A stretch of 64,000 nt of DNA from Mobula birostris (taxonomy: Eukaryota), in NCBI RefSeq assembly GCF_030028105.1, contig NC_092370.1, forward strand, positions 40,310,643 to 40,374,642, read 5' to 3'. Numbering within the stretch: the stretch's first letter is position 1; the number at the start of each line of letters is the position of its first letter. A program made the position numbers and the translations under genes. Of the stretch, positions 37,002 through 37,177 are shown in pieces. A model generated the notes under the pieces. The model did not search any database and was not told the origin of the DNA. It saw only the letters and a program-made list of their open reading frames with translations.

Positions 37002-37177
37002 GCAACACACACAAAATGCTAGAGGAACTCTGCAGGCCAGGCAGCATCTATAGAAAAAAGTACAGTTGATATAGTCGACTGTACTCTTTTCCATAGATGG
37101 TGCCTGGCCTGATGAGTTCCTCCAGCAATTTGTGTGTGTTACTTGGATTTCCAGCATCTGCAAATTTCTCTTCTTTG
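37002..37177. mobile_element. 176-bp fold-back PLE mini-element with 15-bp TSD
   Basis: About 70-bp inverted arms plus tail; flanked by TGCTTTT(T/G)TGGGCAA at 36987-37001 and 37178-37192. Confidence 0.85.

What the first reader, a model, noticed from the sequence alone, without database searches (positions are those of the whole stretch)
37002..37177. Fold-back PLE mini-element whose symmetry axis sits at the predicted ribozyme cleavage site
Seen: two inverted arms of about 70 bp meet at cagttgata-ta-gtcgactg. Each arm stops within about 4 nt of the hammerhead GTC^GACT site (the left arm shows CpG decay), followed by a tail of about 35 nt and a 15-bp TSD with one mismatch. It looks like a MITE but is made only of PLE sequence downstream of the cleavage site. 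Inference: a self-cleaved short RNA was reverse-transcribed and copied twice at one target, which would make this a ribozyme-defined non-autonomous retroelement class. This is the best candidate for an under-described system here.
Basis: partly seen in the sequence, partly recalled or inferred. Interest (0 to 1): 0.75.

Follow-up and report, generated by a model that had tools for sequence, protein, structure and literature searches.

The report
Head-to-head Penelope retrotransposon stub
This 176-base hairpin is two short copies of a Penelope-type jumping gene's end joined head to head, a known insertion layout; both copies run 2-3 bases past the predicted self-cutting site of the element's RNA, so they were likely copied from uncut RNA and are probably a one-off leftover rather than a new ribozyme-defined element.

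Summary
In detail: a 176-bp insertion (37002-37177) with two inverted arms of about 69 bp, a one-sided 35-nt tail and a 15-bp TSD (14/15). A nearby paralog shows the empty site. Both junctions are present in three relatives (1.5-8% diverged), and one contig from the more distant ones spans a same-length centre. The layout (inverted 5'-truncated pLTR, one-sided tail, TSD, palindrome at the junction) is the published anatomy of endonuclease-bearing Penelope-like elements. The right arm keeps 3 bases and the left at least 2 bases upstream of it, which a cleaved 3' product cannot template directly. The cut also lies inside a GTCGAC palindrome, so cleavage and palindrome effects are confounded. No amplified family with this centre was seen, and other fold-back centres vary across the hammerhead. 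A loose truncation hotspot at the hammerhead remains possible (2 of 8 other nearby ends, P about 0.1), and perfect cut-to-cut hairpins would be invisible to my contig test. The scan already noted similar stubs elsewhere in this genome. Verdict: ordinary PLE stub; cleavage role about 20%.

The parts
36987..37001 (+). Left target-site duplication, 15 bp; its last 3 bases also match the pLTR continuation (possible priming microhomology)
   Evidence: arm reported from 36999
37002..37069 (-). Left arm: inverted, tail-less pLTR copy, from +66 back to -2 relative to the predicted cut (to -3/-5 if 37070-37072 are decayed pLTR)
   Evidence: family letters from loose ends
37070..37073 (.). Centre filler, TATA (1-4 nt depending on how far the left arm is read); symmetry axis at 37072
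   Evidence: sequence
37074..37142 (+). Right arm: pLTR copy from -3 to +66; predicted hammerhead cut between 37076 and 37077, inside the palindrome GTCGAC
37143..37177 (+). One-sided 35-nt PLE tail, ending where other tailed copies in the window end
   Evidence: tail definition PMC8557442, PMC11167929
37178..37192 (+). Right target-site duplication, 15 bp, 1 mismatch
37978..38143 (-). Inverted paralog of the flank that carries the empty site
   Evidence: 82% over 149 nt, 81% over 32 nt
34889..35551 (-). Closest longer family member in the window (92-93% to each arm); tail-less, carries the hammerhead region and runs on into the endonuclease coding region
6090..7560 (.). Longer head-to-head PLE insertion of another subfamily with intact hammerhead-like motifs and the linker + GIY-YIG reading frame (6667-7227); same architecture, junction far from the cut

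Best explanation
It is a TSD-flanked pair of very short Penelope-like pLTR copies joined head to head, likely made once, at this site, when the element's enzyme primed reverse transcription from both cut DNA strands and likely stopped just inside the hammerhead of an uncut RNA. Steps: (1) inferred: the GIY-YIG endonuclease makes a staggered cut 15 nt apart in AT-rich DNA (TSD shown). (2) inferred from in vitro work on an anole PLE: each target 3' end primes cDNA, one at the outer start site (arm with tail) and one at the inner start site (arm without tail). (3) shown: the arms end at -3 and -2 to -5; inferred: RT stalls on entering the folded or protein-bound hammerhead core. (4) inferred: the two cDNA ends are joined with 1-4 A/T filler bases at or beside the GTCGAC palindrome, and fill-in gives the TSD. 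(5) The product has no hammerhead core and no ORF (shown), is old (arms 14% apart; present in relatives 6-8% diverged) and is probably inert.
For: Anatomy matches published PLE insertions: inverted 5'-truncated copy plus one-sided 30-40 bp tail (PMC8557442); TSD and palindromes at inverted junctions (PMC3846280); opposite-strand hammerhead pairs 100-700 bp apart (PMC4209133). The anole PLE cuts and extends both strands, the tail equals the distance between two RT start sites, hammerhead mutants do not change insertion, and no RNA-seq reads began or ended at the cut (PMC11167929). Both arms pass the cut. In the window 0 of 16 callable 5' ends are clearly at +1; they range from about -1100 to +61. 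In one search, 7 of 8 rows with known filler letters are fold-back centres whose arms reach well upstream of the cut (by eye about -31/-11, -26/-17, -12/-28, -10/-30, -31/-10, -6/-18), one further join lies at +12/+12, and the 4 centre-spanning contigs among the 32 longest pieces have depth 7-14, like single-copy flank contigs (6-18).
Against: Ends do crowd near the cut: besides this element, 2 of 8 ends within 100 nt of the cut lie at -6/-8 and about +2 to +6 (P about 0.10 against uniform), and 3 further contigs have centres within 3 nt of this one's length. The cause of stopping (structure, protein, palindrome or cleavage) is not shown. Because GTCGAC is self-complementary, the bases past the cut could have been copied from the partner cDNA. 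Twin priming is borrowed from a Poseidon-clade element in vitro; this family looks Neptune/Nematis-type. The contig test is insensitive: it did not list this locus's own centre in runs X2 and X9.
Confidence: 0.7

Rival explanations
1. Cleavage-defined ends: RT ran off the 5'-OH end of the self-cleaved RNA at +1, and the extra 2-3 bases came from a jump onto the still-paired 5' fragment or onto the partner cDNA.
For: Both arms stop within 5 nt of the cut; two other short insertions in the window start within 8 nt of it; the closest relative at 34889 lacks one base right at the cut. PLE minimal hammerheads cleave weakly as dimers (PMC4209133) and the anole one cleaves when protein is added (PMC11167929).
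Against: Needs two separate short jumps to give 5 of 5 family-matching bases. No clean cut-to-cut join is among the 7 joint rows (but young perfect palindromes would be hidden, see Tried and rejected). Majority letters next to these arms read a core with C in place of the canonical A6 in most rows, and so does the closest window relative; canonical core recalled, activity of the variant untested. Hammerhead mutants did not alter insertion in vitro.
Confidence: 0.17
2. Self-priming fold-back: one cDNA snapped back at the palindrome around the cut and copied itself to make the second arm.
For: Proposed for palindromes at PLE inverted junctions (PMC3846280). In an intact copy the only self-complementary 6-mer between -35 and +10 is GTCGAC at -3.
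Against: The tail-less arm ends where solo tail-less copies also end (8690, 34889, 43998, 50727), which fits a fixed RT start site rather than a chance end of self-copying. The observed centre is one base longer than, and differs from, the hairpin that the family sequence would form (by eye).
Confidence: 0.06
3. Post-insertion deletion: a longer head-to-head insertion lost its middle.
For: Long inverted repeats are unstable (established knowledge); longer head-to-head insertions exist in the window (6090-7560).
Against: X10 record 8 spans 37037-37103 with 6 differences, 0 gaps and flank-like depth 8.3, so the centre had this length in a relative 6-7% diverged. The centre holds filler rather than a shared microhomology.
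Confidence: 0.04
4. A self-propagating non-autonomous hairpin family (MITE-like or retrozyme-like) mobilised as a unit.
For: It keeps the region downstream of the hammerhead, which in the anole element suffices for in vitro insertion, and non-autonomous PLE derivatives are known.
Against: No high-depth contig crosses this centre in 4 runs: depth crossing 37070 is 62-174 against 1.1-1.8 million on the arm (depth is only a rough guide). Copying a hairpin RNA as a unit from the outer start site would not need two start-site-defined ends. No look-alike of the whole 176 bp among earlier scan windows (weak).
Confidence: 0.03

Closest known systems
Complex insertions of endonuclease-bearing Penelope-like elements: inverted 5'-truncated pLTR, one-sided 30-40 bp tail, TSD (Pen2a_Av etc., PMC3846280; PMC8557442 Fig. 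2 legend)
   Same: Head-to-head arms, tail on one arm only (35 nt), TSD, palindrome at the inverted junction.
   Different: Extreme brevity: no ORF, no hammerhead core, both copies cut down to about 69 bp; TSD 15 bp against 8-10 bp in the rotifer examples.
Poseidon of Anolis carolinensis, PAc (PMC11167929)
   Same: Hammerhead upstream of two RT start sites that bound the tail; AT-rich target; both strands used.
   Different: Different clade (the window's element has the CX2-5CxxC linker of Neptune/Nematis); the paper does not describe 5' junctions in the parts I read.
Minimal type I hammerheads of metazoan PLEs (PMC4209133)
   Same: Family pLTR carries stem I, core, stem II and the palindromic GAAACGTC stem III; opposite-strand pairs known.
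   Different: This insertion lacks the core; only the cut-site triplet and downstream strand remain.
Non-LTR retrozymes (bioRxiv 10.64898/2026.07.22.740005)
   Same: Short, non-coding, PLE pLTR-derived.
   Different: Retrozymes are head-to-tail tandems with a hammerhead in each unit; this is head-to-head with none.
L1 twin-priming inversions (recalled; listed only)
   Same: Two primers from one staggered cut give a 5' inversion inside a TSD.
   Different: L1 arms come from different parts of one RNA; here the same segment is present twice.

Membership tests
EN+ Penelope-like element insertion | Sequence is the terminal repeat of an element coding RT plus C-terminal GIY-YIG | tested here: met
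   Arms 92-93% to copy 34889, which runs into sequence 73% like the frame at 6667-7227; that frame is 62% to a protein with Pfam RVT_1 and GIY-YIG hits. The window fragment alone had no Pfam hit.
EN+ Penelope-like element insertion | Inverted 5'-truncated copy adjacent at the 5' end | tested here: met
EN+ Penelope-like element insertion | 30-40 bp tail on one end only | tested here: met
   35 nt, right arm only
EN+ Penelope-like element insertion | Target-site duplication and empty site | tested here: met
EN+ Penelope-like element insertion | Minimal hammerhead in the family pLTR | tested here: met
   Motif scan and stem I fold in other copies; Rfam gave 0 hits at gathering score.
Neptune/Nematis clade | CX2-5CxxC linker before GIY-YIG | tested here: met
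   Present in frame 6667-7227 and homologues; this is another subfamily than the stub's.
Neptune/Nematis clade | RT phylogeny | not tested
   No RT tree was built.
Non-LTR retrozyme | Head-to-tail units each with a type I hammerhead | tested here: not met
   Head-to-head; no core inside 37002-37177.
Non-LTR retrozyme | Circular RNA intermediate | not testable with these tools
   No raw RNA reads offered.
MITE | Terminal inverted repeats at both ends, related to a DNA transposon | tested here: not met
   Right end is a tail outside the repeat; sequence is PLE pLTR.
MITE | Many copies of uniform length and centre | tested here: not met
   Only low-depth centre-spanning contigs; test insensitive to young perfect palindromes.
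Proposed ribozyme-defined non-autonomous class | Arms begin at +1 and hold nothing upstream of the cut | tested here: not met
   -3 and -2 to -5.
Proposed ribozyme-defined non-autonomous class | Breakpoints cluster at the cut genome-wide | tested here: inconclusive
Proposed ribozyme-defined non-autonomous class | RNA with a 5'-OH end at the cut | not testable with these tools
   Only contigs were available.

The most novel reading that the evidence does not exclude
The hammerhead of this ray PLE sets where reverse transcription ends: cleavage, or the cleaved-but-still-paired ribozyme, makes a sharp hotspot of 5' ends, so that head-to-head stubs of near-fixed length are a genomic fossil record of in vivo PLE ribozyme activity. 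A set of perfect cut-to-cut hairpins, invisible in contigs, is not excluded. That such hairpins also spread as units is much less likely (about 0.03).
Probability: 0.2. Interest if true: 0.55.

Novelty: new member of a known kind. Interest (0 to 1): 0.22.

Why it matters
The role of PLE hammerheads is open: they cleave weakly in vitro and were dispensable for insertion in the one reconstituted system. A ray genome with a very large number of copies (about 53,000-61,000 contigs laid per run) makes the question testable by counting 5' ends base by base. This single locus does not answer it and, read literally, points to an uncut template. As an element it is an ordinary, old, very short PLE insertion.

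Tried and rejected
Rfam: 0 hits. Exact-pattern scans for family copies found 0 loci in metagenome contigs and 0 in prokaryote genomes. In one search the joint table (15 shown, 387 hidden) was dominated by alignment seeds and was not used for breakpoints; run X1 had no cover on most of the right flank. In one search, joint rows marked 'between: not known' (5 of 7 rows) cannot be placed and were left out of the centre list, except the +12/+12 row, which is cited with that caveat. Runs X2 and X9 did not list this locus's own centre, so absence in that test is weak. Young perfect cut-to-cut palindromes would break contigs at the axis (my inference from how such contigs are built) and would not be seen. 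I did not lay reads on an intact-hammerhead copy, because the closest one lacks a base at the cut and CpG decay there would fake breakpoints. PDB search of the endonuclease fragment gave nothing useful. Lunse et al. on hammerhead core variants was not held; I saw only its title in a reference list. Copy at 8022-8059 was too decayed to call and was dropped from the 17 copies, leaving 16. No TSD was found by script for the insertions at 63415, 17500 and 6090.

Full report
Observation. The sequence holds a 176-bp insert at 37002-37177 between two 15-bp direct repeats (36987-37001, 37178-37192; 1 mismatch). None of 200,000 random 15-mer pairs from the window matched at 14 of 15. The arms are 71 nt and 87% complementary, fold as DNA at z = -13.2, and the right arm carries 35 extra bases. 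The flank has an inverted paralog at 37978-38143 in which the duplicated word stands once, an internal empty site. The insert lies upstream of cytochrome P450 exon-like segments (CYP7 likeness recalled).

What it is made of. BLAST of the insert against the window found many copies of the same end sequence. The closest, at 34889-35551, is 92-93% like each arm and continues through a hammerhead-like motif into sequence similar to the frame at 6667-7227. That frame matched 14 longer proteins, best 74-82% in the rays Hypanus and Mobula; one shark homologue has Pfam RVT_1 and GIY-YIG hits and the CX2-5CxxC linker described for Neptune and Nematis PLEs. So the arms are the pLTR end of an endonuclease-bearing Penelope-like element in a ray-like genome.

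Where the arms stop. With +1 the first base after the cut, the right arm begins at -3. The left arm reaches -2 for certain and -3 to -5 if two further differences are CpG decay; the decay at +1 itself is supported (C dominates at 37067 in 4 of 4 runs). A cleaved 3' product starts at +1 and cannot template these bases directly; five matching bases by untemplated filler has a chance near 1 in 1000. The escape is that GTCGAC, which straddles the cut, is self-complementary (the only such 6-mer between -35 and +10 in an intact copy), so the partner cDNA could have supplied them, at the cost of two short jumps. The same palindrome means that nearness to the cut cannot by itself separate cleavage from palindrome-guided joining.

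Other ends in the window. I read 5' ends by eye for 17 copies and dropped one as too decayed. Of 16, none is clearly at +1; four lie between -8 and +6 (this element's two, a tailed solo stub at 36079 starting at -6/-8 with a 9-bp TSD, and a tail-less solo stub at 43998 starting at about +2 to +6 with an 8-bp TSD). Leaving out the finding itself, 2 of 8 ends within 100 nt of the cut fall there (P about 0.10 against uniform). A second fold-back at 63415-63545 has its arms ending at about +22 and +61. This hints at a loose hotspot, no more.

Relatives and copy number. Contigs of four public runs were laid on 36560-37980. Organisms B, C and D each have a contig running from the left flank into the left arm and one from the right arm into the right flank, at 1.5%, 5.5-8.1% and 6.1-7.2% difference, so the insertion predates their split. 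Laid on 37032-37112 (9,394-10,747 records per run; 32 pieces shown, 39,912 hidden, longest kept), 4 of the 32 span the centre: one in organism D with 6 differences and no gap at flank-like depth 8.3 (likely the orthologue; it does not reach the flanks), and three with centres 3 shorter, 1 longer and 2 longer at depth 7-14. Depth crossing 37070 was 62-174 against 1.1-1.8 million on the arm; the tool warns that depth is no copy number, so I use only the order of magnitude. Seven of 8 rows with known filler letters are centres whose arms reach far into the hammerhead, by eye about -31/-11 (two organisms), -26/-17, -12/-28, -10/-30, -31/-10 and -6/-18. The commonest loose ends at the arm tips (458-609 contigs per run at 37066) continue as hammerhead sequence, so most copies run through the cut. 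Against my reading: the test missed this locus's own centre in two runs, and young perfect cut-to-cut hairpins would be hidden.

Is the ribozyme competent? Majority letters beside these arms show C at core position 6 in most rows (A in 2 of the 8 rows for the right arm), as does copy 34889. These are mixed-subfamily majorities, the canonical core is recalled, and I could not read the paper on core variants. It lowers, without excluding, the cleavage reading.

Comparison with print. PMC8557442 (passages) gives the inverted 5'-truncated copy and one-sided 30-40 bp tail as typical. PMC3846280 (passages) shows them with 8-10 bp TSDs and notes palindromes at inverted junctions. PMC4209133 (parts 1-2 of 4) describes minimal hammerheads, opposite-strand pairs 100-700 bp apart and low dimeric activity. 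PMC11167929 (parts 1-2 of 4; its supplementary Fig. S2, not seen, bears on the RNA-end claim) shows both-strand cutting and extension, two start sites bounding the tail, no effect of ribozyme mutants on insertion, and no RNA-seq ends at the cut. The retrozyme preprint (part 1 of 5 and passages; supplements not seen) defines retrozymes as head-to-tail units with hammerheads, which this is not. PMC6765202 was seen as passages. I found no paper that maps PLE junctions against the cut: searches gave 0 papers; two searches gave 3 and 14 listings, judged from the listing only apart from the two papers above; supplied the papers read. Subscription journals are mostly not covered.

Earlier scan notes describe several similar stubs elsewhere in this genome with other centres, and two report some preference for the cut. 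They are unchecked leads and not counted as support.

Verdict. A real but ordinary, very short head-to-head PLE insertion, most likely twin-primed and truncated on uncut RNA at the hammerhead (0.70). A cleavage role at the ends is possible (about 0.2); a separate mobile class is unlikely (0.03). New member of a known kind; interest 0.22.

Noticed in passing
window 63415-63545: Second fold-back PLE insertion: left arm ends at about +22, right part is little more than the tail (from about +61), with about 42 nt of foreign filler between; no TSD found by script.
   Followed up: partly
window 36079-36179: Solo tailed PLE stub inside a LINE fragment, 9-bp TSD, starting at -6/-8 with 2-nt microhomology to the target.
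   Followed up: partly
window 43998-44073: Solo tail-less PLE stub, 8-bp TSD, starting at about +2 to +6 with a short stutter-like 5' end.
   Followed up: partly
window 6090-7560: Head-to-head PLE of another subfamily, 276-bp arms 93% alike, with linker and GIY-YIG frame; its left end abuts what looks like a hammerhead motif of a further repeat family (about 6000-6089).
   Followed up: partly
window 36853-37209 and 37978-38143: Low-copy local inverted repeat, about 82% alike, also present in organisms B, C and D; the element sits in its left arm.
   Followed up: partly
table 5c (centres laid on window 37068-37079): All seven fold-back centres with known filler have 35-37 letters between the arms, several as reciprocal pairs near -10/-30; this may be a preferred junction geometry or a reporting bias of the tool.
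   Followed up: no
window 34960-34990: Hammerhead core variant with C at position 6, also the majority reading beside these arms in public runs; this copy also lacks one base at the predicted cut.
   Followed up: partly
window about 41080, 47099-47788, about 61200: Exon-like segments of a cytochrome P450 gene (Pfam p450 below cut-off for 47099-47788; CYP7 likeness recalled).
   Followed up: no
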